Shown in pieces: positions 52,998 to 64,000 of a stretch of DNA of 64,000 nt. Both the position numbers and the translations under genes were made by a program. The stretch covers positions 144,784-208,783 of the forward strand of contig JASNYI010000002.1 of assembly GCA_048500275.1 (NCBI GenBank), given 5' to 3'. The notes under the pieces are model-generated. The model searched no databases. It was not told where the DNA came from and saw nothing but the letters and a program-made list of their open reading frames with translations. Within the stretch, counting starts at the first letter, position 1. Each line of letters starts with the position of its first letter. The DNA comes from Thermoanaerobaculia bacterium. GTDB taxonomy: Bacteria > Acidobacteriota > Thermoanaerobaculia > UBA5066.

Positions 52998-53932
52998 AGG
53001 AGATCCGGATCACAGTCCTGATCCTGGCCGTCGTCGTCGGGTTCGTCGTCCTGTCGAGCGCGCTCTACACCGTCGGGGAGACCCAGCAGGTCGTCATCAC
53101 GCAGTTCGGCAAGCCGGTCGGCAAGCCGATCACGACACCCGGCCTCAAGCTCAAGATGCCCTTCACCCAGACCGTCCACTCCTTCGAGAAGCGGTTCATG
53201 GAGTGGGACGGCGACCCGAACCAGATCCCGACGAAGGACAAGCGCTTCATCTGGGTCGATTCGTACGCCCGCTGGCGGATCACCGACCCGCTTCTCTTCT
53301 TCCAGCGCCTCCGCGACGAGCGGGGGGCGCAGTCGCGCCTCGACGACATCCTCGACGGCGAGACCCGGAACGTGATCGCCAAGAACGAGCTGATCGACAT
53401 CGTCCGCTCGACGAACCGCCCGTTCGTCGTCGGCGACGACATGGCCGACCTGACCCAGCCGGAGGCCGCCGAGAAGGTCGAGCACGGGCGCGAGAAGCTG
53501 ACCCAGGAGGTCCTCGCGAACGCCCGGCGGCGCACCGGCGACCTCGGCATCGAGATCCTCGACTTCCGCATCAAGCAGATCAACTACGTCGAGGCCGTCC
53601 GCCAGGAGGTCTACGCCCGGATGATCTCCGAGCGCAAGAGGATCGCCGAGCGCTACCGCTCCGAGGGGGCGGGCGAGGCGGCCCGGATCGCGGGCGAGAA
53701 GGAGCGGCAGCTCCGCGTCATCGAGTCCGAGGCGTACCGCAAGGCCCAGGAGATTCGCGGCAAGGCCGACGCCGAGGCCGCCGACATCTACGCCGCTGCC
53801 TACAACCGCGACCCCGACTTCTACCGGTTCCTGAAGTCGATGGGCACCCTCCGGGAGAGCATCGACCCGGAGACGACTCTCATCCTCTCGACCGACAGCG
53901 AGCTCCTCCGCTACCTCGGCTCCGCGAAGTGA
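52994..53932 (+). CDS. hflC: FtsH protease modulator HflC
   Basis: VITQFGKPV, TKDKRFIWVD, RMISERKRIA, YNRDPDFYRF. GTGA overlap with hflK. Confidence 0.95.
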   Translation: MKEIRITVLILAVVVGFVVLSSALYTVGETQQVVITQFGKPVGKPITTPGLKLKMPFTQTVHSFEKRFMEWDGDPNQIPTKDKRFIWVDSYARWRITDPLLFFQRLRDERGAQSRLDDILDGETRNVIAKNELIDIVRSTNRPFVVGDDMADLTQPEAAEKVEHGREKLTQEVLANARRRTGDLGIEILDFRIKQINYVEAVRQEVYARMISERKRIAERYRSEGAGEAARIAGEKERQLRVIESEAYRKAQEIRGKADAEAADIYAAAYNRDPDFYRFLKSMGTLRESIDPETTLILSTDSELLRYLGSAK

Positions 53933-53939
53933 TCCGGAC

Positions 53940-53971
53940 GCCCGCCCCCGCGCTTCGGCGCGGGGGCGGGC
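53940..53971. terminator. Stable hairpin (cUUCGg tetraloop) between convergent hflC and M24 peptidase
   Basis: 14-bp perfect stem GCCCGCCCCCGCGC / GCGCGGGGGCGGGC around a TTCG loop; no U-tract. Confidence 0.5.
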
Positions 53972-54027
53972 GGGCCCCGGGGCGCGCCGGCGGGCAGGCG
54001 CGAGGCGGGGGGGGACAGCAGCCGTCC

Positions 54028-55209
54028 CTACCCGACCAGGGCCAGCTCCGTCTGAGGCTCCGAGAGCCACTCGCACCCGTCCGGGGTGACGAGGACCATC
54101 TCCTCCACGGTGCAGACGCCCCTCCCGGGAACCGTGAGGCGCGGCTCGATCGTGAAGACCATCCCCGGCTCGAGCTTCCGGAAGGGCTTCTGCGCGTACT
54201 TCTCCCAGGCCGGCCCGAGAAGGGCCGTGCCGTCGTGGGCGAAGCGCCCCACCTGGTGGCCGAGGCCGTGCGGGAACTCCTCGAAACCGCGCCCGGCGAG
54301 GACGCGGCGCGCGATCGCGTCGATCTCGTGGCCGAGCGCACCCGGCCGCATGGCCTCCTTGCACTGGCGGATCGCGTCGACGATGGTGGCGAAGCCGTGG
54401 GCGACGTCGGGCGGCGCGGCGGCCTCTCCCTCCTCGAGGACGTAGAACGTCCGCTGCAGGTCCGAGACGTAGCCGTCGACCTTCACGCCGAAGTCCATGT
54501 TCAGGACGTGGCCGCGCTCCACGACCCGGTCCGTCGGCGCGTAGTGGGCCCCCGCGGTGGCCGGGCCCGTGAAGACGCCCGGGCAGATCGACTCGTGCCA
54601 GCTGAAGCCGAGGCCGCGCCGCCGGGTCTCCTCCCGCATGAAGGCGGCGATCTCCTTTTCGGTGAGGCCGGGACGGAGGAAGCCGCCGACGAGGGCGTAG
54701 ATCTCCTCGGTGTGCCGGATCGCCCGGCGGATCGTCTCGACCTCCCAAGCCGTCTTCCGCTCCCTGAGGGAGGAGACGATCGGCTCGGCCGAGACGATGC
54801 GGTCCTCCAGCCCCGCCTCCGCGAGGAGGCGCCGCATCGTCAGGAACATCCCGTGGGTGAGCCCGTCGCAGATCTCGCTCCCCTCCGAGTAGTTGAGGGC
54901 GATGGTCCGCGGGGCGAGCGGCCGGATGAAGTCGAGGAACGGCTCACGGAAGCCCGTGACGAATCCGACGACCTCGTCCCAGGCGCCGAGGTCCTTCACC
55001 GTCGGCACGTCCTGGCTCCCCACGATGGCCCGCGTCGGGCCGCCGCGGCAGACGATGAAGGCCGAGTGCCAGGTCAGGTGGGGCGGGCCGAGGTAGACCA
55101 GCGTCGGGTCGCCGACGATCTCGGTCTCCCTCGTGAACGTGATCCAGCAGTCGACGTCGAGCTCTTCGAGGAGAGCCCTGGCCTGCCGGAGCTTCTCGCG
55201 GATCAACAT
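54028..55209 (-). CDS. M24 family metallopeptidase (Xaa-Pro aminopeptidase-like)
   Basis: MDFGV...YVSDLQRT, HGLGHQVG...HD, FTIEP, EEMV metal ligands. Confidence 0.92.
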   Translation of the reverse strand: MLIREKLRQARALLEELDVDCWITFTRETEIVGDPTLVYLGPPHLTWHSAFIVCRGGPTRAIVGSQDVPTVKDLGAWDEVVGFVTGFREPFLDFIRPLAPRTIALNYSEGSEICDGLTHGMFLTMRRLLAEAGLEDRIVSAEPIVSSLRERKTAWEVETIRRAIRHTEEIYALVGGFLRPGLTEKEIAAFMREETRRRGLGFSWHESICPGVFTGPATAGAHYAPTDRVVERGHVLNMDFGVKVDGYVSDLQRTFYVLEEGEAAAPPDVAHGFATIVDAIRQCKEAMRPGALGHEIDAIARRVLAGRGFEEFPHGLGHQVGRFAHDGTALLGPAWEKYAQKPFRKLEPGMVFTIEPRLTVPGRGVCTVEEMVLVTPDGCEWLSEPQTELALVG

Positions 55210-56618
55210 CACGCACCTCCGGGGTTCGTCGTTTCGGCGGCGGCGGGGCGGAGCCCGGCGCGGAGCCAGCCCCGGGCGAGGAGCAGGGCGATCGGCGTCA
55301 CCATGGCGACGGCCGCGTGGATCAGCCACATCCGTTCGGTGAGGAGGGGGCCCCCGGCGGGGCAGTACCTCGACAGGAACCACCCGGCGTAGAGGCCCGT
55401 CAGGAACTTCGTCAGGAACCACGGGAACTGCCCGATCCCGACGTAGGCGCCCGCTCTCCCGGGCGGCGCCATCTCGGTGACGAGGTGGAAGAAGCGAGGC
55501 TGCCACATCGCCTCGCCGACCGTCATCAGGAGGATGTAGGCGAAGAGGGCCGCGGGCGACGGCCCCAGGACCAGGAGGAAGGCGGGCGCCGCCATGACGA
55601 GCGTCCCCCACTGGATCATGTCGAGCGGGTCCATCTTCGCGGTGAGCGCGGCGACGAGAGGGGCGAGGAGGAAGACGAGGAGGGGGCTGAGGTTCGCGAA
55701 GAGCTCGAACCGGCTGCTGACCCACGGGACGAAGGCGCGGTCGATGTAGAGGGGCAGCGTCAGCCAGCCGTGGGCGAAGAGGGTCTGGACGGGGATGAGG
55801 ACGAAGACGAAGAACGTGAAGCGGGCGTCCCGGAGGGGATGCTCGGCCAGCCAGCGGGAGGTGAAGGGCCGCGGCCGGGGCGCGGCGCTGGCGGCGGCCT
55901 CGAGGGCGGCCGTCTCCGGGCGCCGCGCCCGCGCCTCGTCCACGAGGCGGGGCGTCAGGAGGAGGGCGGTGACCGCGACGGAGGCGAACGTGAGCGCGGC
56001 GTAGAGCGCGAAGACCCCGTGGATCCCGTTCGGCGGGAAGGCGGCGGCCGAGGCCTCGCGCACGAAGGGGGAGAGGAAGCCGGCGAGGAAGGCGCCGAGG
56101 TTGTTGAGGGCGTAGATCACGGCGAACGCCACGGCCGACGACTTCGGGTCGGCGTACTGCTTCACCGCGGAGAAGAGGGCGGGCTGGAACGTCCCGAAGC
56201 CGACGACGACGACGAGGAGCCCGAGGGCGGTGGCGAGGAAGGCGGGCGAGGCGAACCCGGTGCCGGGGAGCTTCCCGGCCGCCGCGAGGAGAACCCTCCC
56301 CACCGCCATCGCGCCGATGGCGAGGAGGAGGACCCTCCGCGTGCCGAACCGGTCGCCCAGCTCGCCGAGGAAGAACATGGCGAAGGTGACGCCCCCGGTG
56401 AAGAGCGAGACGACGAACCCGGCCCGGACGTCGCCGAGTCCGAGGTTCTCCGACAGGGACTTCATGAGGAGTGTCAGGACGCCGAAGTAGGCGATCCCCT
56501 CGAGGAGGTAGGGGACGTTCAGGCCCCAGAGGGCGCGGGGGGAGGCGAGGAAGGCGCGGGCGGTCTTCTTCAGCTCGCCGAGCGCCTTCGCGAGGGGGCG
56601 GGGCGTGGCTCCCGTCAC
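55209..56618 (-). CDS. MFS transporter (peptide/POT-like)
   Basis: YLLEGIAYFG, GELGDRFG, YALNNLGAF; 12 TM helices. Stop overlaps the M24 start. Confidence 0.88.
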   Translation of the reverse strand: MTGATPRPLAKALGELKKTARAFLASPRALWGLNVPYLLEGIAYFGVLTLLMKSLSENLGLGDVRAGFVVSLFTGGVTFAMFFLGELGDRFGTRRVLLLAIGAMAVGRVLLAAAGKLPGTGFASPAFLATALGLLVVVVGFGTFQPALFSAVKQYADPKSSAVAFAVIYALNNLGAFLAGFLSPFVREASAAAFPPNGIHGVFALYAALTFASVAVTALLLTPRLVDEARARRPETAALEAAASAAPRPRPFTSRWLAEHPLRDARFTFFVFVLIPVQTLFAHGWLTLPLYIDRAFVPWVSSRFELFANLSPLLVFLLAPLVAALTAKMDPLDMIQWGTLVMAAPAFLLVLGPSPAALFAYILLMTVGEAMWQPRFFHLVTEMAPPGRAGAYVGIGQFPWFLTKFLTGLYAGWFLSRYCPAGGPLLTERMWLIHAAVAMVTPIALLLARGWLRAGLRPAAAETTNPGGA

Positions 56619-56622
56619 GGGG

Positions 56623-57975
56623 CTAGACCCAGCCCCGCCGCGCGAGGGCGGCCCGGACCCGGGGCGGGTCCCCGCCGGCCTCCTTGCACGCGGCGGTCAC
56701 TGGGGCGTAGCCGTGCTGCCGCGAGAGGCGGGAGAGGGTCGGGACGAGGGTCGAGGCGTGCCGCTCGTTGACGGCGGCGTCGGCCTCGAGGCCCGCGACG
56801 CAGAAGGCCGCGAGGGAGTCGGCCGCGTTGCCGAGGAGGCTCATCGCGTCGAGCGTCTCGAAGAGGACGAGGCTCTCCCAGACGTTCAGGTCGAGCTCGC
56901 CGTGGTCGATCGCGGCCTCGCAGGCCGCCTGCCGGCCGACGGCGGCGAGGGCGAGCTGGATCACGAACTCGGGGATGACGGGGTTGACCTTGCCGGGCAT
57001 GGCCGAGGAGCCGGGCTGGCGGGGCGGGAGACGCAGCTCGCCGAGCCCCCCCTCAGGGCCGGAGGAGAGGAGCCTCAGGTCCTTCGCGATCTTCACGAGG
57101 CCCCGCGCCAGGAGCCCGAGCTGGACGGCGACGTTCACGGCGTCGTCGGGGTTCTGGGCCGCGTCGTAGAGGTCGGGAGCCGCCTCGTACCGCGGGTCTC
57201 CGGTCGCCTCGCAAAGGGCGGGGACGACGGCCTCGCGGTAGGCGGCGGGAACGGCGTCGCCGTCGCCGATGACGGTCCCGCCGAGGTTGACGCGGTGCAG
57301 CCGGTCGACGGCCTCTGCGGCGCGCTCCCGCCCGCGCTCGACGAGGCCCGCCCAGCCGCCGAGGAGCGCCTCCCAGGTCGAGGGGACGGCGTCCTGCAGG
57401 CAGGTGCGGGCGAGGCGCGGTGCTCGGCCCAGCCCGGCCCCCTTCGCCCGGATCGAAGCGGAGAGCCCCGCGAGGGACGAGGAGAGGGGAGCGAAGGCCG
57501 TCACGAGGGCGACGTGGCACGCAGTGGGGTAGACGTCGTTCGTCGACTGGTTCAGGTTGACGTGGTCGTTCGGGTGGACGAGCCGGTACTCGCCGCGCCG
57601 TCCCCCGAGGATCTCCTCGGCGAGGTTGGCGAGGACCTCGTTCGCGTTCATGTTCGCCGAGGTCCCGCCGCCGCCGTGGAGGCGGTGGACCGGAAACTCG
57701 TCGAAGAGCCCTTCGGCAAGGACGCGGCCCGCGGCGGTGGCGATCGCCTCGCCGACGCCGGGCGCGAGGAGCCCGGCGCGGACGTTGGCTTTCGCCGCGG
57801 CCGTCTTGACCGCGAGGAGCGCCGAAACGAGCTCGGGGCAGCTGCCGATCGTCCGCTCGCCCCGGAGCGGGAAGTTCTCCACGGCCCGCCGGGTCTGCGC
57901 CCCGAAAAGCGCCCCGGCGGGTACCTCGACCTTCCCCAGGAGGTCCTCCTCGACTCGAACGCCTCCAGCTGCCAT
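56623..57975 (-). CDS. aspA: Aspartate ammonia-lyase-like enzyme (fumarase/aspartase superfamily)
   Basis: GAQTRRAVENF, GGGTSANMNANEV, HPNDHVNLNQSTNDVYPTA, RTCLQDAVP, GSSAMPGKVNPV. Substrate not certain. Confidence 0.85.
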   Translation of the reverse strand: MAAGGVRVEEDLLGKVEVPAGALFGAQTRRAVENFPLRGERTIGSCPELVSALLAVKTAAAKANVRAGLLAPGVGEAIATAAGRVLAEGLFDEFPVHRLHGGGGTSANMNANEVLANLAEEILGGRRGEYRLVHPNDHVNLNQSTNDVYPTACHVALVTAFAPLSSSLAGLSASIRAKGAGLGRAPRLARTCLQDAVPSTWEALLGGWAGLVERGRERAAEAVDRLHRVNLGGTVIGDGDAVPAAYREAVVPALCEATGDPRYEAAPDLYDAAQNPDDAVNVAVQLGLLARGLVKIAKDLRLLSSGPEGGLGELRLPPRQPGSSAMPGKVNPVIPEFVIQLALAAVGRQAACEAAIDHGELDLNVWESLVLFETLDAMSLLGNAADSLAAFCVAGLEADAAVNERHASTLVPTLSRLSRQHGYAPVTAACKEAGGDPPRVRAALARRGWV

Positions 57976-58035
57976 CGTCCCCGTCCTTTCGCCCCCGGGG
58001 TGCCGCCGGCACGCCCGATGAGGCACAATAGGGGC

Positions 58036-58716
58036 ATGACAATACGCCACCGTATGCAGAGGAGTCCAGCGCCCGGGGGCGAGTCGACCACCCAGCTGAG
58101 CCGGCTCCACTGGACCGAGCTGGGGCTTCACCTCCTCGGCCAGCGGGGCCTCGAGGCCGTCCGTGTCGAGGTCCTCGCGCGCCGGCTCCACGTGACGAAG
58201 GGGAGCTTCTACTGGCACTTCAGGAACCGTCAGGACCTCTTCGACTCCATGGTCGAGCTGTGGGAGGAGGAGACCCGCGCGCTCCTCACCGAAGCCGGAG
58301 AGGCGGAGCCGGGGCTCCCGCGCCTGAACCGGCTTTTCGAGCTGGTGGACCGGCACAAGGGGCGGCGCCCCGACGTGGCCATCTTCTCCTGGGCCCGGCG
58401 CGACGCGAAGGTCGCGGCCCGCGTGGACGCGGTGGAGAGGAAGAGGATCGAGTTCCTGGAGGGGGCCTTCCGTGCGGTGAGGGGGAGCGAGGCCGGCGTG
58501 GCCGAGGACGCGCTCTTCACCTACCTGGCGTTCGTCGGCTGGCTCGACCGGTCGAGCCGCGCTCCGAAGTCGACGCCGGCCTACAGGGAGTTCGCCTCGA
58601 CGATCCTGCGCCGGCTCGTGCCGGGCGCCGGAGCCGCGGCGGCCGCGCCGCCGGGCGCGAGCGAGCCGGTGGCCGGACCCCGCCCGCGCAGGCGGAAGAA
58701 GCCGGCGGCCCCGTAG
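58036..58716 (+). CDS. TetR/AcrR family transcriptional regulator
   Basis: GLEAVRVEVLARRLHVTKGSFYWHF HTH. ATG 58036 (or 58054). Confidence 0.93.
   Translation: MTIRHRMQRSPAPGGESTTQLSRLHWTELGLHLLGQRGLEAVRVEVLARRLHVTKGSFYWHFRNRQDLFDSMVELWEEETRALLTEAGEAEPGLPRLNRLFELVDRHKGRRPDVAIFSWARRDAKVAARVDAVERKRIEFLEGAFRAVRGSEAGVAEDALFTYLAFVGWLDRSSRAPKSTPAYREFASTILRRLVPGAGAAAAAPPGASEPVAGPRPRRRKKPAAP
58042..58055. promoter_or_regulatory. Candidate TetR operator 1 (tetR/aspA divergent region)
   Basis: ATACGCCACCGTAT, 12/14 match to ATACGGTACCGTAT. Confidence 0.6.
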
Positions 58717-58779
58717 CGAACGGACTCCTGGAAGGGTGCGGGAGGAGAGCGCCCGGGTCCCGGGATCCCTTTCGTTCCA

Positions 58780-58825
58780 TACCATACGGTACCGTATTGA
58801 CAGGCCGGCGATCGGGGGCTAGATT
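58780..58825 (+). promoter_or_regulatory. Candidate TetR operator 2 abutting a sigma-70 promoter of the TonB-dependent receptor
   Basis: Palindrome ATACGGTACCGTAT (58784-58797) overlapping TTGACA (58797-58802), 17-nt spacer, TAGATT (58820-58825). Confidence 0.8.
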
Positions 58826-58855
58826 CCCGGTCGGAACGAAACCCAGGAGGCGGAC

Positions 58856-61522
58856 ATGCGCAAGGCCCCCGTGCTTCTCGCCCTCGTCCACGCTTTCGTC
58901 CTCGCTCTCGTCCTCGCGACGCCGGTCGCGCTCGGCGGGACGACCGGCGCCCTCTCGGGCACCGTCGCGGACGCCGAGGGTGTCGCCCTCCCGGGGGTGA
59001 GGGTGACGATCGAATCCCCGGCGCTGATCGGCGGGTGGCGGACGCTGACGACCGGGGCGGACGGCCGGTTCAGCTTTCCGGCGATCGCCCCGGGTGTCTA
59101 CGCGGTGAGGATGGAGCTCCCGGGCTTCGCGACCCAGGAAAAGACCGACGTGCAGGTCCGGCTCGACCGGACCACGACGCTCGTCGTCACGATGCCGGAG
59201 GCGAAGCTCTCCGCCGACGTGACGGTGACCGCCGGGACGCCGCAGGTGGACGCGACGAGGGTCGGGGCCGCCGAGAACTTCACCGACGCCTACATGCAGA
59301 AGGTCTCGGTGGGCTCGGCGAACCGCTCCTACGAGTCGGTCGTCTCCCAGGCCGCCGGGGTCTCGGGAGCGAACGTCCTGGGCTCGACGTCGACCGAGAA
59401 CATCTACCTCGTCGACGGGCTCACGAGCAACGACGCGGCGACCGGAGACCTCGGGACGCGGCTGAACTTCGACGTCATCCAGGAGGTCTCCTTCCAGGCG
59501 ACGGGGTTCGAGGCGGAGTACGGGGGCGCCACCGGGGGGGTTGTGAACCTGATCACGAAGTCGGGCGGGAACTCCTTCTCCGGGAGCTTCGACGTGAGGT
59601 ACCGGGACGAGTCGTTCAACGAGAACGGGGACCACTTCGACCGGGACGCCCAGACCTCGAGCTACTTCGCCCCGGCCGCGACGCTCGGCGGGCCCCTCGT
59701 GCAGGACAGGCTCTGGTTCTTCGCGGGCTACGAGCGGATCGACTCGGAGTCGACGCCGTCGGGGGCCCCGACGACCGCGGCCCGCGTCTCGGACAACTGG
59801 ATGGCGAAGCTGACGTGGCAGCTCTCGCAGTCCTGGCAGCTCGTCGGCAAGGTGACGGGGAACCCGAACGAGATCGACGACGTCGACTCCTCGCCCCTGG
59901 TCCTTCCCGAGGCGACCTCGAGGTTCGAGACGTCGACGAACATCTACCAGGTCGAGAGCCTGGCGACGCTCTCGCCGAGCCTCCTCTGGAACCTGCAGCT
60001 CGGACGGAACCGGCAGACGCTGGACAACGACCCGCAGTCGGGAGACCTCGAGCGGATCTCCCACCTCGACCTGGCGACGCAGGTGCGCTCGAGGAACTAC
60101 TTCAACGCCCAGTACTCGACCCGGGACCGGGTCGAGGGGAAGACGTCCGTGACGTACCTCGTCGACGGCGCGTCCGGCGCCCACGAGCTGAAGGCGGGCG
60201 TCGGCTACGGCGAGACCGAGTTCGAGTTTCGGAGCTTCCTGCCGGGCGGCTACCTGTACGGCGACTTCTTCGGCGGCCCGTACCTCCTCTTCTACGCGCA
60301 GGACCCCGGGACGCAGACCTATCAGGGAGCCGCTTACTCGGCCTACGTCCAGGACGCCTGGACGCTCGGCCGCGGGCTGACCGTGAAGGCGGGCCTTCGC
60401 TGGGACCGGGCGACGTACGACAGCTACACGGGCGAGCGCGTCGCCGACCTCGACCTCCTCCAGCCCCGCGTGGGCGCGGCGTGGGACGCGACCGGCGACG
60501 GAAAGACGGTCGCGCGCGGCTCCTGGGGCCGGTTCATGAACCAGGCGGGCCTCACCCTCCCGTTCCAGAACCTCAAGGGGGTCAGCAGCCTCGGGCGCTA
60601 CGCGTCGTGCCGGGCCTTCATCGGCGACCTCGACACCTGCCGTGCCGTCGCGGCGGCCATCGGCAGCGTCGTGATCGACGACCCCTCGGGGGACTTCGCG
60701 GGTGAGGGCTGGCTTCTCCTTCAGCCCTACGTGCCCGCGAACGACCGGCTCGAGCCCGGGACGCGCGCGACTTACGCGGACTCTTTCCTCGTGGGCGTGG
60801 ACCGCGAGCTCTTCGCCGGGACGACGGTCGGCGTGCAGTACGTCTACAAGGAGACGAAGGACATCATCGACAACACCTGCAACGGGAACTGGCCCGGCCC
60901 GCCTTCGGCAGGGGCGCCGTGCGGCTACCTCGTCGTCGGGAACCTCGAGGGGCTGAGGCGGCTCTGGCGGGGCGCGATCTTCCACGTCGACTCCCGGCCC
61001 GCCCCGGGGGTCCAGCTGAACCTCTCCTACACGTACGGGATCTCGGAAGGGAACGTCGAGGCGACGCAGTACAACGGCCCCGACTTCGACTACTACCCGT
61101 ACCACTTCGTGAATCGCTACGGCTACCTCTCGGACGACCGGCGCCACCGGGTGAAGCTGAACGGGTTCGCGGACCTCCCCTGGGGCTTCACGGCGGGGCT
61201 CTCCGCGACGTGGGAGTCGGCGTTCCGGTGGACTCCCCTCGACGTCACCGACCCGACGCTCCCGTATGACGCGGTCTTCGTCGAACCCCGCGGAAATCGC
61301 GAAGCGGGCAGCTACACCCAGGTCGACCTCCAGCTCGCCAAGGCGTTCCAGCTCGGCCCCGTGCGCCTCTCGGCGATCGGCAGCGTCCTGAACCTGTTCG
61401 GGACCGAGCGGGTCACCGGGGTCTGCGCCTACACCACGGGTTGCGGCGCCGTGCAGCAGGGAGAGGCCCTCTCCTGGCAGCAGCCGCGCCGGTACGAGAT
61501 CGGGTTCCGCGCCGAGTTCTGA
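58856..61522 (+). CDS. TonB-dependent receptor (Oar-like, N-terminal carboxypeptidase-regulatory-like domain)
   Basis: AGGAGG RBS, signal peptide, GTVADAEGVALPGVRVT, AEYGGATGGVVNLITKSG, terminal Phe (GFRAEF). Confidence 0.93.
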   Translation: MRKAPVLLALVHAFVLALVLATPVALGGTTGALSGTVADAEGVALPGVRVTIESPALIGGWRTLTTGADGRFSFPAIAPGVYAVRMELPGFATQEKTDVQVRLDRTTTLVVTMPEAKLSADVTVTAGTPQVDATRVGAAENFTDAYMQKVSVGSANRSYESVVSQAAGVSGANVLGSTSTENIYLVDGLTSNDAATGDLGTRLNFDVIQEVSFQATGFEAEYGGATGGVVNLITKSGGNSFSGSFDVRYRDESFNENGDHFDRDAQTSSYFAPAATLGGPLVQDRLWFFAGYERIDSESTPSGAPTTAARVSDNWMAKLTWQLSQSWQLVGKVTGNPNEIDDVDSSPLVLPEATSRFETSTNIYQVESLATLSPSLLWNLQLGRNRQTLDNDPQSGDLERISHLDLATQVRSRNYFNAQYSTRDRVEGKTSVTYLVDGASGAHELKAGVGYGETEFEFRSFLPGGYLYGDFFGGPYLLFYAQDPGTQTYQGAAYSAYVQDAWTLGRGLTVKAGLRWDRATYDSYTGERVADLDLLQPRVGAAWDATGDGKTVARGSWGRFMNQAGLTLPFQNLKGVSSLGRYASCRAFIGDLDTCRAVAAAIGSVVIDDPSGDFAGEGWLLLQPYVPANDRLEPGTRATYADSFLVGVDRELFAGTTVGVQYVYKETKDIIDNTCNGNWPGPPSAGAPCGYLVVGNLEGLRRLWRGAIFHVDSRPAPGVQLNLSYTYGISEGNVEATQYNGPDFDYYPYHFVNRYGYLSDDRRHRVKLNGFADLPWGFTAGLSATWESAFRWTPLDVTDPTLPYDAVFVEPRGNREAGSYTQVDLQLAKAFQLGPVRLSAIGSVLNLFGTERVTGVCAYTTGCGAVQQGEALSWQQPRRYEIGFRAEF

Positions 61523-61596
61523 CGGGGACCGTCTCGCGGACGGGGCCGGGACGCGGGCACGCCCCGCTTCCCGGTCCCGTTCGTCTTCGGGAGCGC

Positions 61597-62556
61597 CTAC
61601 GCCCAGAGGTCGGTCGAGAGGTACTTGAGGCCGGAGTCGCAGAGGAGGACGGCGACCGTCGCCCCCGGGCAGGTCGTCGCGAGGAGCCGGAGCGCCGCGG
61701 CGACGTTGGCCCCGGACGAGAAGCCGGCGAAGATCCCCTCCTCGCGCGCGAGGCGGCGGGCCGTCGCGACGGCCTCCCGGTCGGAGACGGCGAGGCAGCC
61801 GTCGACGAGGTCCCGGGAGAGGAGCGGAAGCTCCGCCCTCGAGTAGCCCCCTCCCTGGATCCGGTGGCCGGGGTTCGTGACGGGCTTTCCCGCGAGGACG
61901 GCCGCCCCCTCGGGCTCGACGACGAAGCAGAGCGTCGAGGGGTTCGCCGCCTTGAACGCCATCGCGCAGCCGGTGAACGAACCGCCGGTCCCCACGAAGT
62001 CGCAGAAGGCGTCGACGCGGGTGCCGGCCTGGCGGAGGATCTCGGGCCCGGTGTGGAGGAGGTGGGCGCGGACGTTCGCCCGGAGGAGGAACTGGTCGGC
62101 CCTGAAGGCGCCCCGCTCTCGCGTGATGCGCTGCGCCTCGGCCTCCACGAGGTCGAGGTCGCCGCCGGAGACCTGGCCGGGCACGGAGTCGGGAAGCTGG
62201 TCGACGAGGACGACCTCCGCGCCGAGGGCCGACATCATCCGGGCGCGCTCCACGGAGTTTCCCTTCGACATGACGGCGACGAACGGGTACCCCTTCACGC
62301 CGCAGACGATGGCGAGCCCGGTGCCGGTGTTGCCGCTCGTCAGCTCGACGACGGCCTGGCCCGGCCGGAGCGACCCGTCGGCCTCGGCGTCCTCGATCAT
62401 CTGGAGGGCGATCCGGTCCTTCTTCGAGAAGCCGGGGTTCAGGTACTCGAGCTTGGCGAGGATGCGGCCTTCGGCCCCGCGCGTGATCCGCGACAGCTCG
62501 ACGAGCTTCGTCTCGCCGATCGCCTCGACGACGGAGCCGAGGAGGCGGCCGGTCAC
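61597..62556 (-). CDS. PLP-dependent cysteine synthase family enzyme
   Basis: IGETKLV, KLEYLNPGFSKKDRIA, TSGNTG, GTGGSFTG, GFSSGA, CDSGLKYLST. GTGA overlap with the upstream gene. Confidence 0.9.
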   Translation of the reverse strand: MTGRLLGSVVEAIGETKLVELSRITRGAEGRILAKLEYLNPGFSKKDRIALQMIEDAEADGSLRPGQAVVELTSGNTGTGLAIVCGVKGYPFVAVMSKGNSVERARMMSALGAEVVLVDQLPDSVPGQVSGGDLDLVEAEAQRITRERGAFRADQFLLRANVRAHLLHTGPEILRQAGTRVDAFCDFVGTGGSFTGCAMAFKAANPSTLCFVVEPEGAAVLAGKPVTNPGHRIQGGGYSRAELPLLSRDLVDGCLAVSDREAVATARRLAREEGIFAGFSSGANVAAALRLLATTCPGATVAVLLCDSGLKYLSTDLWA

Positions 62557-63512
62557 GAGGCGTCTCCCCGGGGCGTCGCCGCGGGGCGCCCGAGCGCGGG
62601 GCCGGCCGCGACGAGGACGACGAGCGCGGCCGCCAGGACGACGAGCGTCCTCGAGTCGGTCCCGAGGCGCTCGTTGAGCGGGCCGGCGAGCGCCTTGCTC
62701 CAGACGTTCGTGACGCCGTGGACGAGGATCGCGGTGAGGGCGCTTCCTCCCGTGCGCTGGAAGAAGTACGTCATGACGATCGAGAGCGCGAGGCAGAGGA
62801 GGAGGAAGAGCGCCTGGTTGAGGAGGAAGCGGCCGACGGGAAGTCCGGCGAGGAGGCCGACGACCTCGCGGGGCAGGTGCCACGCCCACCATAGAACGGC
62901 GAGGAACGCCGTGGCGGCGAGCGGGGCGCGGCCGCGCGCGAGGAGGAGGGGGAGGGCGAAGCCGCGCCAGCCCAGTTCCTCGAGGAGTCCGCCCTCGTCG
63001 AGGAAGGGCCCGAGGGCGAGAGCGGCCAGGACGGCGAGAGGGGCGCCGCCGAGGGAATCGAGCGCGAAGGCTCGCTGCTCGCTCGTCCCGAGCGCGAAGA
63101 GGCTCCAGAGGTAGCCGGCCGTCCCGAGCGCCGAGAGGCCGAGGAGGAGGGCCCACGCCCGGGCGGCGTCCCTTCGGGGGACGTCGGGCCCGAACGGGGA
63201 AAGCCGGGCGAGGAGCGCCTTCAGCCCCGGCAGGCCCTCCGCGCCGAGCACCACGGCGACGGCCGCGAGGGTCGGCGCGGCCGCGAAGAGAAAGATGAGC
63301 CACGCGAGGGGCTCGCCGAGCGCGAACCGGCCGATGGAGACGACGTTCGGGTAGAGACGGTTCGCCTGGAGAAAGGCCCAGAGGTCCGACAGGAGACCCG
63401 AGGCCCGGAGGGCGAGGCTGGCCGCCATCACGCCGCAGACGACGAGGAGCGCGAGGCCGTAGAAAGCGCCGAGGGGGTGCCGGCGAACGAAGGAGCCGGG
63501 AGATTCGGGCAT
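62553..63512 (-). CDS. CPBP (CAAX/Abi) intramembrane metalloprotease
   Basis: EELGWRGFALP, WWAWHLP, ILVHGVTN. AAGGAGG RBS. Confidence 0.92.
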   Translation of the reverse strand: MPESPGSFVRRHPLGAFYGLALLVVCGVMAASLALRASGLLSDLWAFLQANRLYPNVVSIGRFALGEPLAWLIFLFAAAPTLAAVAVVLGAEGLPGLKALLARLSPFGPDVPRRDAARAWALLLGLSALGTAGYLWSLFALGTSEQRAFALDSLGGAPLAVLAALALGPFLDEGGLLEELGWRGFALPLLLARGRAPLAATAFLAVLWWAWHLPREVVGLLAGLPVGRFLLNQALFLLLCLALSIVMTYFFQRTGGSALTAILVHGVTNVWSKALAGPLNERLGTDSRTLVVLAAALVVLVAAGPALGRPAATPRGDAS

Positions 63513-63544
63513 GACGGAGACCCTCCTTCCGCGGGAGACCTCAT

Positions 63545-63570
63545 GCTACCATACGGTACCGTATGGTAGC
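63545..63570. promoter_or_regulatory. Candidate TetR operator 3: perfect 26-bp palindrome between divergent genes
   Basis: GCTACCATACGGTACCGTATGGTAGC; shares 18 consecutive bp with 58780-58797. Confidence 0.8.
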
Positions 63571-63607
63571 GACGCCCCCCGGGGGCGCGCTCCGAAGGGA
63601 GGCCCGG

Positions 63608-64000
63608 ATGCGCCCGAGACCCTCGCCCGAAACGCCCGCGCCGCGCGCCGCCACGCTCTTCTCCCGGGCGGCCGTCCCCGCTCTGCTCGCGTGGCTCGCG
63701 CTCGCAGCCGCGGCCTGCGCCCGGCCGTCGGGGCCCATGACCGACGAGAGGTTCGCGAAACTGACGGTCGCCTTCCAGAAGGAGCTCGACGCGCTCCGGG
63801 AGAAGGCGGCCTTCCCGGGCGCCGTCGCGGCGATCGAGTGGTCGGACGGGCGCACCGCCGTCGTCGCGACGGGGCTCGCCGACCGCGAGGCCGGGACGCC
63901 GATGCCGAAGGGCGCGCGGCTCCTCGCCGGCAGCGTCGGGAAGAGCTTCGTCGGCGCCGTCGCCCTCGGCCTCGCGCGGGACGGGAGGCTGGAGCTCGAC
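63608..64000 (+). CDS. Serine hydrolase (beta-lactamase family) lipoprotein, partial
   Basis: Not in the ORF track (runs off the edge). GGGAGG RBS, ATG 63608, lipobox LAAAAC, FPGAVAAI, SxxK motif GSVGKSF. Confidence 0.85.
   Translation, partial: MRPRPSPETPAPRAATLFSRAAVPALLAWLALAAAACARPSGPMTDERFAKLTVAFQKELDALREKAAFPGAVAAIEWSDGRTAVVATGLADREAGTPMPKGARLLAGSVGKSFVGAVALGLARDGRLELD

What the first reader, a model, noticed from the sequence alone, without database searches (positions are those of the whole stretch)
54028..64000. A TetR regulon defined by three copies of an ATACGGTACCGTAT operator
Seen: a perfect 26-bp palindrome (63545-63570) between CPBP-cysteine synthase-like and the serine hydrolase; the same 18 bp overlapping the -35 of a near-consensus promoter of the TonB receptor (58780-58802); and a 12/14 variant at the tetR start, adjacent to a TTGTCA hexamer facing the aspA-MFS-M24 operon. 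All five transcription units across ~10 kb therefore share one operator. Established: TetR proteins bind such palindromes and autoregulate. Inference: an inducible uptake and catabolism system for a peptide-like or modified amino-acid compound (outer-membrane receptor, amidase, membrane protease, transporter, aminopeptidase, two eliminating enzymes).
Basis: partly seen in the sequence, partly recalled or inferred. Interest (0 to 1): 0.65.

Follow-up and report, generated by a model that had tools for sequence, protein, structure and literature searches.

The report
TetR repressor with three local operators
Three copies of one short palindrome around a TetR-type repressor gene are almost certainly its binding sites, tying an outer-membrane importer and about nine peptide and aspartate breakdown genes into one small switchable unit: a sound but ordinary gene switch.

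Summary
ATACGGTACCGTAT lies exactly at 58784-58797, fused to a TTGACA-17-TAGATT promoter of the TonB-dependent receptor. It lies again at 63551-63564, the centre of a perfect 26-bp palindrome. A 12/14 variant sits at the tetR start (58042-58055). In the whole 5.6-Mb genome, ATACG-N4-CGTAT with perfect arms occurs only at these three places.

Comparative evidence ties the site to the TetR:
- Orthologous loci at 52-94% TetR identity keep the sites while the flanking DNA diverges.
- 69 of 80 distant relatives across several phyla carry the same motif (consensus CCATACG-N4-CGTATGG) at their own tetR start, a 337-fold enrichment.
- A blind metagenome search with the 18-mer returned 96 loci. 66 encode such a TetR, 61 of them within 160 bp of the motif.

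The regulon runs about 3.9 kb past the window end. It comprises an aspartase-like lyase, an MFS transporter, an M24 peptidase, the receptor, a CPBP protease, a CysK/beta-cyanoalanine-synthase-like enzyme, an S12 D-peptidase-like hydrolase, a CocE/NonD hydrolase and a dipeptide epimerase. The conserved core is lyase, tetR and receptor, plus asparaginase in farther orthologs.

The likely substrate is Asx- or D-residue-containing peptides. That, the ligand and co-derepression are inferred, not shown. This is a new member of a known kind.

The parts
54028..55209 (-). M24 metallopeptidase (Xaa-Pro dipeptidase / aminopeptidase-like), last gene of the left operon
   Evidence: Pfam Peptidase_M24, E 3.6e-45. 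NCBIfam best hits are aminopeptidase PRK09795 and PepQ, all below their cut-offs. The start ATG overlaps the MFS stop by 1 nt (read). The ortholog is 393 aa in L003 and L007.
55209..56618 (-). MFS transporter, middle gene of the left operon
   Evidence: Pfam MFS_1, E 2.8e-23. Weak similarity to dipeptide permease DtpD and to aromatic acid symporters. Lies 4 nt after the lyase stop.
56623..57975 (-). Aspartase-like lyase (aspartase/fumarase superfamily), first gene of the left operon, divergent from tetR
   Evidence: Pfam Lyase_1, E 3.7e-63. NCBIfam aspartate ammonia-lyase PRK12273, 433 bits against a cut-off of 510. In the PDB, aspartases 8rj1/1j3u score 292-294 bits and fumarases about 262. 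Divergent from tetR in every ortholog.
58024..58029 (+). CACAAT, a -10-like hexamer of the tetR promoter, 6 nt before the first ATG
   Evidence: GCACAAT is kept in 7 of the 8 aligned tetR 5' regions; the eighth, L094, has GACAAT at the equivalent place (alignment A3). Its function is inferred.
58042..58055 (.). Operator O1 (ATACGCCACCGTAT, 12 of 14), between two in-frame ATGs (58036, 58054) of tetR and next to TTGTCA (58042-58037, minus strand)
   Evidence: Kept as ATACGCC(A/G)CCGTAT in close orthologs and as (A/G)TACGGnCCCGTAT in orthologs at 54-61%. An autoregulatory site at this position is typical of the subfamily.
58036..58716 (+). tetR (TetR/AcrR-family regulator; 226 aa from ATG 58036 or 220 aa from ATG 58054)
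   Evidence: Pfam TetR_N, E 7.1e-13. The recognition helix VTKGSFYWHF is invariant in 16 relatives. Single copy in the genome and absent from 60 relatives.
58780..58797 (.). Operator O2 (TACCATACGGTACCGTAT; core 58784-58797), overlapping the -35 of the receptor promoter
   Evidence: In alignment A2 of 7 loci (52-94% TetR identity) only the operator, -35, -10, Shine-Dalgarno and start are invariant.
58797..58825 (+). Promoter of the TonB-dependent receptor: TTGACA-17-TAGATT
   Evidence: 10 of 12; shuffles give a mean of 0.0. Conserved in all orthologs.
58856..61522 (+). TonB-dependent outer-membrane receptor with N-terminal CarboxypepD_reg domain
   Evidence: Pfam CarboxypepD_reg, OMP_b-brl_4 and TonB_dep_Rec_b-barrel. 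Orthologs at 52-61% TetR identity also carry such a receptor behind the same operator-promoter.
61597..62556 (-). PLP-dependent CysK-like / beta-cyanoalanine-synthase-like enzyme, second gene of the CPBP operon
   Evidence: Pfam PALP, E 2.9e-66. All NCBIfam cysteine synthase models score below their cut-offs. The best PDB match is beta-cyanoalanine synthase 6pmu at 267 bits, against at most 220 for cysteine synthases. Its GTG start overlaps the CPBP stop by 4 nt.
62553..63512 (-). CPBP (Rce1-like) intramembrane protease homolog, first gene of the operon divergent from the serine hydrolase
   Evidence: Pfam Rce1-like, E 1.9e-11. GGAGGG lies 8 nt before the ATG (read).
63545..63570 (.). Operator O3: perfect 26-bp palindrome (core 63551-63564) in the 95-bp gap between the CPBP and serine-hydrolase genes; each arm holds a -10-like TATGGT
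   Evidence: Kept at the same place in L004 (exact core) and in L137 (ATACGGcACCGTAT). The outer 4 bp of each arm are not kept there, so the functional site is about 18 bp.
63608..64000 (+). S12 beta-lactamase-fold serine hydrolase (D-stereospecific peptidase-like) with an N-terminal signal or lipoprotein-like sequence. It runs on to about 64831. A CocE/NonD S15 hydrolase (about 64846-66654) and a dipeptide-epimerase homolog (about 66651-67916) follow, outside the window.
   Evidence: Pfam Beta-lactamase, E 1.4e-50, for the whole gene in L002. Peptidase_S15 + PepX_C and MR_MLE for the next two genes. PDB matches: DD-carboxypeptidase 9s7k and alkaline D-peptidase 4y7p; cocaine esterase 3ida; L-Ala-D/L-Glu epimerase 1jpm, E 3e-73. 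Same gene order in L004.

Best explanation
The TetR-family protein encoded at 58036-58716 binds an approximately 18-bp palindrome (CCATACG-N4-CGTATGG). I infer that it binds as a dimer and acts as a repressor.

The palindrome occurs three times, and only here, in the genome.
- O2 covers the -35 hexamer of the TonB-dependent receptor promoter and would block RNA polymerase.
- O1 lies just downstream of the -10-like CACAAT of tetR itself, across its start codon. It is about 65 bp from the start of the divergent lyase-MFS-M24 operon. This gives autoregulation and probably control of that operon.
- O3 fills the middle of the 95-bp gap between two divergent operons: CPBP with the CysK-like enzyme, and the S12 hydrolase with the S15 hydrolase and the dipeptide epimerase.

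I infer that a small-molecule ligand releases the repressor and switches on a pathway. The receptor imports a peptide-like compound. Exported serine hydrolases, and possibly the epimerase, process it. The MFS carrier takes the products into the cell. The M24 peptidase and the aspartase-like lyase finish the breakdown to fumarate and ammonia.

Shown by computation: the sites, their uniqueness, their conservation, and the site-TetR association. Inferred: binding, repression, the ligand, and the substrate class (peptides containing Asx and/or D-residues; my odds about 0.4-0.5).
For: 1. Uniqueness. Perfect-arm sites occur 3 times in 5.6 Mb, all within 5.5 kb of the only gene of this TetR subfamily in the genome.

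2. Footprints in orthologs. In seven orthologous receptor promoters (52-94% TetR identity) the invariant columns are the operator, TTGACA, TAGATT, GGAGG and the ATG. O1 is kept at the tetR start in all orthologs. O3 is kept in both other loci that reach that far (L004, L137).

3. Protein to motif. 69 of 80 loci from species-representative genomes carry ATACG-N4-CGTAT within -250..+30 of the tetR start. These have 30-42% identity and include Acidobacteriota, Cyanobacteria, Rhodocyclaceae, Nevskiales-type Gammaproteobacteria, Paenibacillus and Acidimicrobiales. The site density there is 337 times that of the rest of the loci.

4. Motif to protein. The 18-mer alone retrieves 96 metagenome loci. 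66 encode such a TetR, 61 of them within 160 bp. 18 of the other 30 have the motif less than 650 bp from a contig end.

5. Recognition helix. It is invariant across the relatives, matching the invariant operator arms.

6. Operon structure. Genes are tightly packed, with 1-4 nt overlaps or gaps.

7. Function. The core kept at 52-61% identity is lyase, tetR and receptor, with an asparaginase divergent from the receptor across the operator at 54-61%. The enzyme relatives are cited under parts.
Against: - No binding, expression or ligand data exist.
- No sigma-70-like promoter was found at O3 or for the lyase operon, so the mechanism there is inferred from distance only.
- The TTGTCA beside O1 has no -10 partner.
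- O1 differs from the consensus at two central positions and may bind more weakly.
- The only solved homolog matched over most of its length, AibR, matches very weakly (31.5 bits) and binds DNA only with its ligand bound (PMC5389471). The direction of the ligand effect is therefore not certain.
- The enzymes score below the curated cut-offs of their named families, so their specificities are open.
Confidence: 0.85

Rival explanations
1. The TetR controls only itself and the TonB-dependent receptor, and perhaps the lyase. O3 and the genes around it are a recent add-on with little regulatory effect, so the locus is not a five-unit regulon.
For: Only lyase, tetR and receptor are kept in orthologs at 52-61% identity. 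No promoter consensus was found at O3. The cluster is accessory: it is absent from 40-60 relatives.
Against: O3 is an exact consensus site and one of only three in the genome. It sits in a 95-bp divergent gap. It is kept at that place in L004 and L137 while the flanks differ. Each of its arms contains a -10-like TATGGT.
Confidence: 0.12
2. The ligand acts as a co-repressor, as in AibR. The TetR would bind the operators only when loaded with a metabolite (end-product control) and would not be released by the incoming substrate.
For: AibR is the only solved TetR matched over most of the protein's length. It binds its 18-bp operator only with isovaleryl-CoA bound (PMC5389471). Its half-site ACCTACCG resembles ACCATACG by eye.
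Against: The similarity to AibR is very weak (31.5 bits alone, 27 bits with the profile). The controlled genes are for uptake and catabolism, where induction by substrate is the usual logic. Most characterised TetR proteins are released by their ligand (family knowledge).
Confidence: 0.08
3. The system handles free asparagine and aspartate, or a simple derivative such as beta-cyanoalanine, rather than peptides. It would then be a functional analogue of the ansAB/ansR unit of Bacillus subtilis.
For: The farther orthologs pair the TetR with an aspartase-like lyase and an asparaginase. The PLP enzyme is closest to beta-cyanoalanine synthase.
Against: This genome's version has no asparagine-specific gene. 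It has four peptidase-type or ester-hydrolase genes and a dipeptide-epimerase homolog. A TonB-dependent receptor is an unusual route for a free amino acid (general knowledge).
Confidence: 0.25
4. The palindromes are not TetR sites. They would be chance matches, a dispersed repeat, or sites of another DNA-binding protein.
For: None found beyond the absence of direct binding data.
Against: The chance expectation is 0.002-0.76 sites per genome against 2-3 seen, all at one locus. There are only three copies, so this is not a dispersed repeat. There is no Rfam match. The motif and the TetR subfamily co-occur in both search directions across phyla.
Confidence: 0.03

Closest known systems
TetR/AcrR-family local repressors (TetR, AcrR, TtgR, MtrR type)
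   Same: N-terminal TetR_N helix-turn-helix, with a recognition helix (GSFYWHFKNR) like AcrR (GAIYWHFKDK). About 220 aa. Palindromic operator overlapping promoters of adjacent genes and of its own gene.
   Different: There is no detectable similarity outside the DNA-binding domain to any solved member except a very weak match to AibR. The operator sequence CCATACG-N4-CGTATGG was not found in the searchable literature. The targets are a TonB-dependent receptor and peptide/aspartate catabolic genes, not an efflux pump.
AibR of Myxococcus xanthus (PDB 5K7F/5K7H/5K7Z; PMC5389471)
   Same: It is the only solved TetR protein aligned over most of the length (residues 28-219). It has an 18-bp palindromic operator whose half-site ACCTACCG looks like ACCATACG.
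   Different: The match is very weak (E 1.4e-6 alone, 3e-5 with the profile). AibR binds DNA only with isovaleryl-CoA bound, has a 2-bp spacer and controls a biosynthetic operon. Nothing links the present protein to acyl-CoA.
AnsR-ansAB of Bacillus subtilis (repressor divergent from an asparaginase-aspartase operon; from my own knowledge)
   Same: A repressor gene lies divergent from an aspartase-type lyase. In the orthologs at 54-61% identity it is also next to an asparaginase.
   Different: By my recollection AnsR is not a TetR-family protein (I recall an Xre-type repressor). There is no outer-membrane receptor or peptidase set. This is an analogy of wiring, not homology.
FadP, the predicted TetR regulator of beta-oxidation in Burkholderiales (PMC5343134)
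   Same: The Rhodocyclaceae members of the present subfamily sit beside genes that by sequence look like etfBA and acyl-CoA dehydrogenase genes (my reading of the printed sequences). These are core FadP regulon genes according to the supplement of PMC5343134.
   Different: No link could be shown. The FadP motif is not given in the texts held. A Ralstonia megaplasmid has no CATACG-N4-CGTATG site, and its nearest homolog (39%) has no site upstream. The present locus has no beta-oxidation genes.
ykfABCD-type peptidoglycan-peptide recycling genes of Bacillus subtilis (YkfB L-Ala-D/L-Glu epimerase, PDB 1jpm)
   Same: The last gene of the right operon matches YkfB at E 3e-73. It sits with peptidases, one of them of the D-stereospecific S12 type.
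   Different: The partner enzymes differ: there is no LD-carboxypeptidase and no gamma-D-Glu-L-Lys endopeptidase. The epimerase homolog carries a conserved signal-like N-terminus. The substrate is unknown.

Membership tests
TetR/AcrR family of transcription regulators | N-terminal TetR_N helix-turn-helix domain | tested here: met
   Pfam PF00440, E 7.1e-13, residues 24-65. HTH-level matches to AcrR, MtrR and TetR structures.
TetR/AcrR family of transcription regulators | About 200-aa two-domain all-helical protein acting as a dimer | tested here: inconclusive
   The length of 220-226 aa fits. No structure was predicted and no C-terminal domain family was matched.
TetR/AcrR family of transcription regulators | Palindromic operator at its own and adjacent promoters | tested here: met
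   Three sites, unique in the genome and conserved in orthologs.
TetR/AcrR family of transcription regulators | DNA binding changed by a small-molecule ligand | not testable with these tools
   No ligand can be deduced. It needs gel-shift or thermal-shift screens.
TetR subfamily with operator CCATACG-N4-CGTATGG (delimited here, not a named family) | Recognition helix (V/I)(T/S)KGSFYWHF together with an ATACG-N4-CGTAT site at or just upstream of the gene's own start | tested here: met
   KGSFYWHF is invariant in alignment A1; the two residues before it vary (VT, or IS in P0016 and P0019). 69 of 80 genome loci and 61 of 66 metagenome loci show the pairing. The window has O1 at its start.
FadP-type beta-oxidation regulon | Control of etfBA, acyl-CoA dehydrogenase and fad genes at many operons | tested here: not met
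   No such genes lie in or near the locus. There are only three sites in the genome.
Aspartate ammonia-lyase (AspA), for the lyase gene | Score above the curated equivalog cut-off | tested here: not met
   TIGR00839 scores 347 bits against a cut-off of 681; PRK12273 scores 433 against 510. It is closer to aspartases than to fumarases in the PDB. I call it aspartase-like.
Dipeptide epimerase (enolase superfamily), for the MR_MLE gene just outside the window | Full-length similarity to characterised L-Ala-D/L-Glu and dipeptide epimerases | tested here: met
   1jpm at E 3e-73 and 3jva at E 9e-73. Catalytic residues and specificity were not examined.
Cysteine synthase (CysK/CysM), for the PALP gene | Score above the curated equivalog cut-off | tested here: not met
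   Every cysteine synthase model scores below its cut-off, for example PRK10717 at 283 against 387. The best solved relative is beta-cyanoalanine synthase 6pmu.

The most novel reading that the evidence does not exclude
The operator is not a feature of this locus. It belongs to a large, apparently uncharacterised TetR subfamily found in at least six phyla. That subfamily has kept one recognition helix and one 18-bp site (CCATACG-N4-CGTATGG) essentially unchanged while being attached to quite different cargo:
- a TonB receptor with peptide and aspartate catabolic genes here;
- CocE/NonD hydrolases in many soil bacteria;
- etfBA-acyl-CoA dehydrogenase genes in Rhodocyclaceae;
- HlyD-type exporters in cyanobacteria;
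- a miaA-hflX housekeeping neighbourhood in other Acidobacteriota.

The site is often built into promoter hexamers. Its last T can start a TTGACA -35, and its arm reads TATGG(T/A) like a -10. It would thus behave as a portable promoter-operator module. In this genome the module would mark a TonB-dependent route for scavenging D-residue- or Asx-containing peptides, with part of the processing, including a dipeptide epimerase, placed outside the cytoplasm.
Probability: 0.4. Interest if true: 0.55.

Novelty: new member of a known kind. Interest (0 to 1): 0.38.

Why it matters
For this genome, the result marks out a small accessory regulon of about ten genes, the receptor included, and gives a testable handle on an unknown nutrient of an uncultured, probably acidobacterial, organism. 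One protein, one 18-bp site and one strong promoter can all be moved into a laboratory reporter.

More broadly, the pairing of the (V/I)(T/S)KGSFYWHF recognition helix with CCATACG-N4-CGTATGG lets the autoregulatory and target sites of hundreds of unannotated 'AcrR family' genes in many phyla be predicted from sequence. The kind of switch itself is ordinary.

Tried and rejected
- Orthologs in relatives. I searched 60 genomes of the same genus, family and order for the TetR and 40 for the lyase. None has an ortholog: the TetR has no hit at E<1e-10 and the lyase reaches at most 47% identity. Footprinting had to use metagenome contigs.
- Other cluster genes in the distant loci. tblastn of the window's cluster proteins against the 80 distant TetR loci found none. 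The regulon content is specific to the ortholog group.
- A wider regulon in this genome. There are no further perfect-arm sites, and the 15 one-mismatch sites are no more than chance and lack the CC/GG flanks.
- FadP link. Kazakov 2009 is not held, and the held papers give no motif. The Ralstonia megaplasmid and the Accumulibacter genome have no strict site, and Solimonas has two. The Ralstonia homolog has no site upstream, while an Azospirillum homolog has one. The link is not supported.
- Literature search for the 14-mers and 10-mers: the four 14-mers were not found in any paper, and the 10-mer hits were in papers unrelated to this operator.
- Promoter consensus at O3 and for the lyase operon: none found.
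- Rfam: no RNA family in 53900-64000.
- The 26-bp length of O3 as a sign of a larger site: rejected, because the outer 4 bp of each arm are not kept in L004 or L137.
- Structure prediction of the TetR: not run, because it would not identify the ligand.

Full report
**Observation**

The region was read directly. The 14-mer ATACGGTACCGTAT occurs exactly at 58784-58797 and 63551-63564. A two-mismatch version, ATACGCCACCGTAT, occurs at 58042-58055. The second exact copy is the centre of the perfect 26-bp palindrome GCTACCATACGGTACCGTATGGTAGC (63545-63570). The two exact copies share 18 bp, TACCATACGGTACCGTAT (family D8).

The promoter scan finds one sigma-70-like site in 57850-58900: TTGACA (58797-58802), 17 nt, TAGATT (58820-58825), 10 of 12. 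Its first T is the last base of the operator. The TTGTCA on the minus strand beside the variant site exists (58042-58037), but I found no -10 partner for it.

**Is it more than chance?**

- In the window, three matches at up to 3 mismatches compare with 0.13 expected.
- The whole assembly (5.6 Mb, 3 contigs, 71% G+C; window = C2:144784-208783) has only these three matches at up to 2 mismatches.
- With the genome's base composition the exact 14-mer is expected 0.002 times and is seen twice.
- The arms ATACG-N4-CGTAT are expected 0.76 times and are seen three times, all within 5.5 kb.
- Sites with one arm mismatch are not enriched: 15 seen against about 33 expected for up to one arm mismatch.

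The motif therefore defines a strictly local set of sites.

**Genes**

Left, minus strand, tightly packed:
- an aspartase-like lyase (56623-57975), closer to aspartases than to fumarases but below the curated aspartase cut-offs;
- an MFS transporter (55209-56618);
- an M24 peptidase (54028-55209).

Divergent from these is tetR, with two in-frame ATGs at 58036 and 58054 and an end at 58716. After a weak hairpin comes a TonB-dependent receptor with a CarboxypepD_reg domain (58856-61522).

Convergent on the receptor is an operon of a CPBP/Rce1-like membrane protease (62553-63512) and a PLP enzyme (61597-62556). The best solved relative of the PLP enzyme is beta-cyanoalanine synthase rather than cysteine synthase.

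Divergent from that operon, across the 95-bp gap holding the palindrome, is an operon that leaves the window:
- an S12 beta-lactamase-fold hydrolase most like DD-carboxypeptidases and alkaline D-peptidase (from 63608);
- a CocE/NonD S15 hydrolase with a twin-arginine-type signal;
- a close homolog of L-Ala-D/L-Glu epimerase with a conserved signal-like N-terminus.

The unit ends about 3.9 kb beyond the window.

**Conservation in orthologs**

The TetR has no relative at E<1e-10 in 60 genomes of the same genus, family or order. The lyase has no ortholog in 40 of them, reaching at most 47% identity. The cluster is therefore accessory.

Metagenome contigs supplied orthologs. At 83-94% TetR identity (L003, L004, L007, L137) the gene order is the same, and every site that a contig reaches is present. 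O3 is found in both contigs that extend that far, once with a central T-to-C change.

At 52-61% identity (L008-L011, L094/L095) the kept core is lyase, tetR and receptor. In the loci at 54-61% identity (L008-L011) an asparaginase gene lies divergent from the receptor across the operator.

In an alignment of the seven receptor promoters, the invariant columns are the operator, TTGACA, TAGATT, GGAGG and the ATG; almost everything else varies. At the tetR start, a -10-like CACAAT and the operator arms are the kept blocks.

**The operator belongs to a subfamily**

A pattern scan of species-representative genomes with an alignment of the TetR (recognition helix VTKGSFYWHF in most of the 16 aligned relatives, KGSFYWHF invariant) returned at least 591 relatives. 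The best 80, at 30-42% identity, come from Acidobacteriota, Cyanobacteria, Rhodocyclaceae and other Proteobacteria, Paenibacillus, Gemmatimonadota, Acidimicrobiales and others.

In 69 of the 80, ATACG-N4-CGTAT (at most one arm mismatch) lies within -250..+30 of the tetR start. The density there is 337 times that of the remaining megabase of flanking DNA. The logo is CCATACG(G/C)TA(C/G)CGTATGG. Forty loci have two sites, typically 20-24, 30-37 or 45-53 bp apart.

The reverse test was blind to proteins. The 18-mer alone retrieves 96 metagenome loci. 66 encode such a TetR, 61 of them with the motif within 160 bp of the start of the match. 18 of the remaining 30 have the motif less than 650 bp from a contig end.

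The neighbours differ between clades. They include:
- housekeeping genes (miaA, hflX) in other Acidobacteriota;
- genes that by sequence look like etfBA and acyl-CoA dehydrogenase genes in Rhodocyclaceae;
- HlyD-type exporter genes in cyanobacteria;
- a CocE/NonD hydrolase directly downstream in 17 soil contigs.

This two-way association is the strongest available argument that this TetR reads this palindrome.

**Mechanism**

- O2 overlaps the -35 hexamer, the classical position for steric repression.
- O1 lies 13 nt downstream of the -10-like CACAAT and across the tetR start. That fits autorepression, perhaps on a leaderless transcript beginning at the first ATG.
- The lyase start is only 60 bp from that first ATG (about 65 bp from O1), so its promoter must overlap this region, although no consensus promoter is visible.
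- O3 is centred 45 bp and 50 bp from the two flanking start codons. Each arm contains TATGGT, a -10-like hexamer.

Binding, repression and induction are inferences from family behaviour.

The only solved TetR protein aligned over most of the length is AibR. The match is very weak, and AibR binds DNA only when its ligand is bound (PMC5389471). I therefore keep a co-repressor mode as a minor rival.

**Function**

The enzyme set points to a peptide-like nutrient:
- an outer-membrane importer;
- two exported serine hydrolases, one of the D-stereospecific type;
- a dipeptide-epimerase homolog;
- an inner-membrane carrier;
- a dipeptidase-type M24 enzyme;
- an aspartase-like lyase.

The asparaginase and lyase in farther orthologs point to aspartyl or asparaginyl content. 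Peptidoglycan-derived or other D-residue-containing peptides are one candidate, but this is a guess (odds 0.4-0.5 for 'Asx- and/or D-residue peptides'). The role of the CPBP and CysK-like pair is unknown.

**Comparison with known systems, and novelty**

The protein is a TetR/AcrR-family member by its DNA-binding domain. No named subfamily, solved close homolog or published operator was found. A link to FadP was considered and is not supported. The wiring resembles ansR-ansAB of Bacillus subtilis only by analogy.

The finding is a new member of a known kind of switch. The cross-phylum constancy of the operator is the less ordinary part.

**Limits**

It was not verified here.

Noticed in passing
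just outside the window: L002 3435-4700 (about window 66651-67916); also L004 12123-13358: The L-Ala-D/L-Glu-epimerase homolog has an N-terminal extension of about 60 residues that is conserved in the ortholog. It looks like a Tat or Sec signal (VTRGAFLR..AG..GAGLLRPAGLLAAEE, with only one Arg in the motif). An exported dipeptide epimerase would be unusual.
   Followed up: partly
window 61597-62556 (-): The 'cysteine synthase-like' enzyme scores below every curated CysK/CysM cut-off. It is closest to beta-cyanoalanine synthase structures (6pmu, 267 bits against at most 220 for CysK). It is translationally coupled (4-nt overlap) to a CPBP membrane protease homolog, an unexplained pairing.
   Followed up: partly
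window 58024-58056: The tetR operator is bracketed by two in-frame ATGs (58036, 58054), with a -10-like CACAAT 6 nt before the first. The same arrangement, ATG-(TCA/ACA/ACC)-ATACG-N4-CGT-ATG, recurs in many distant subfamily members. This suggests a leaderless transcript and an operator inside the first codons. On the other strand it reads CGTATTGACA, that is, the operator fused to a -35 box.
   Followed up: partly
L106, L115, L124, L130, L136, L138, L142, L164, L166, L168, L171, L174, L178, L185, L187, L195, L199: In 17 soil and peat metagenome contigs a TetR of the same subfamily (33-48% identity, mostly 34-38%) carries the identical 18-mer at its start. A CocE/NonD (S15) hydrolase gene follows on the same strand wherever both positions were compared. 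This family recurs among the cargo and is also present in the window's regulon.
   Followed up: partly
L031, L036, L041, L044, L052, L056, L062, L069 and other Rhodocyclaceae loci: Two or three tandem paralogous TetR genes of this subfamily lie beside genes that by sequence look like etfBA and a long acyl-CoA dehydrogenase gene. Pairs of operators lie 20-24 bp apart upstream. These may be beta-oxidation regulators; any relation to FadP is unresolved.
   Followed up: partly
window 54028-64000 and G000 as a whole: The whole tetR cluster is absent from species-representative genomes of the same genus: no TetR in 16 same-genus and 44 further relatives, and no lyase ortholog in 16 same-genus and 24 further relatives. 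Versions at 83-94% identity exist in several metagenomes. It is an accessory, patchily distributed cluster. The left flank (Band_7 genes) is syntenic in L003.
   Followed up: partly
L096 1760-2040: A relative at 42-48% identity (beside arginase and MarC genes) lacks ATACG-N4-CGTAT. It has separated CCATAC and GTATGG elements in an AT-rich gap, possibly a diverged operator layout.
   Followed up: no
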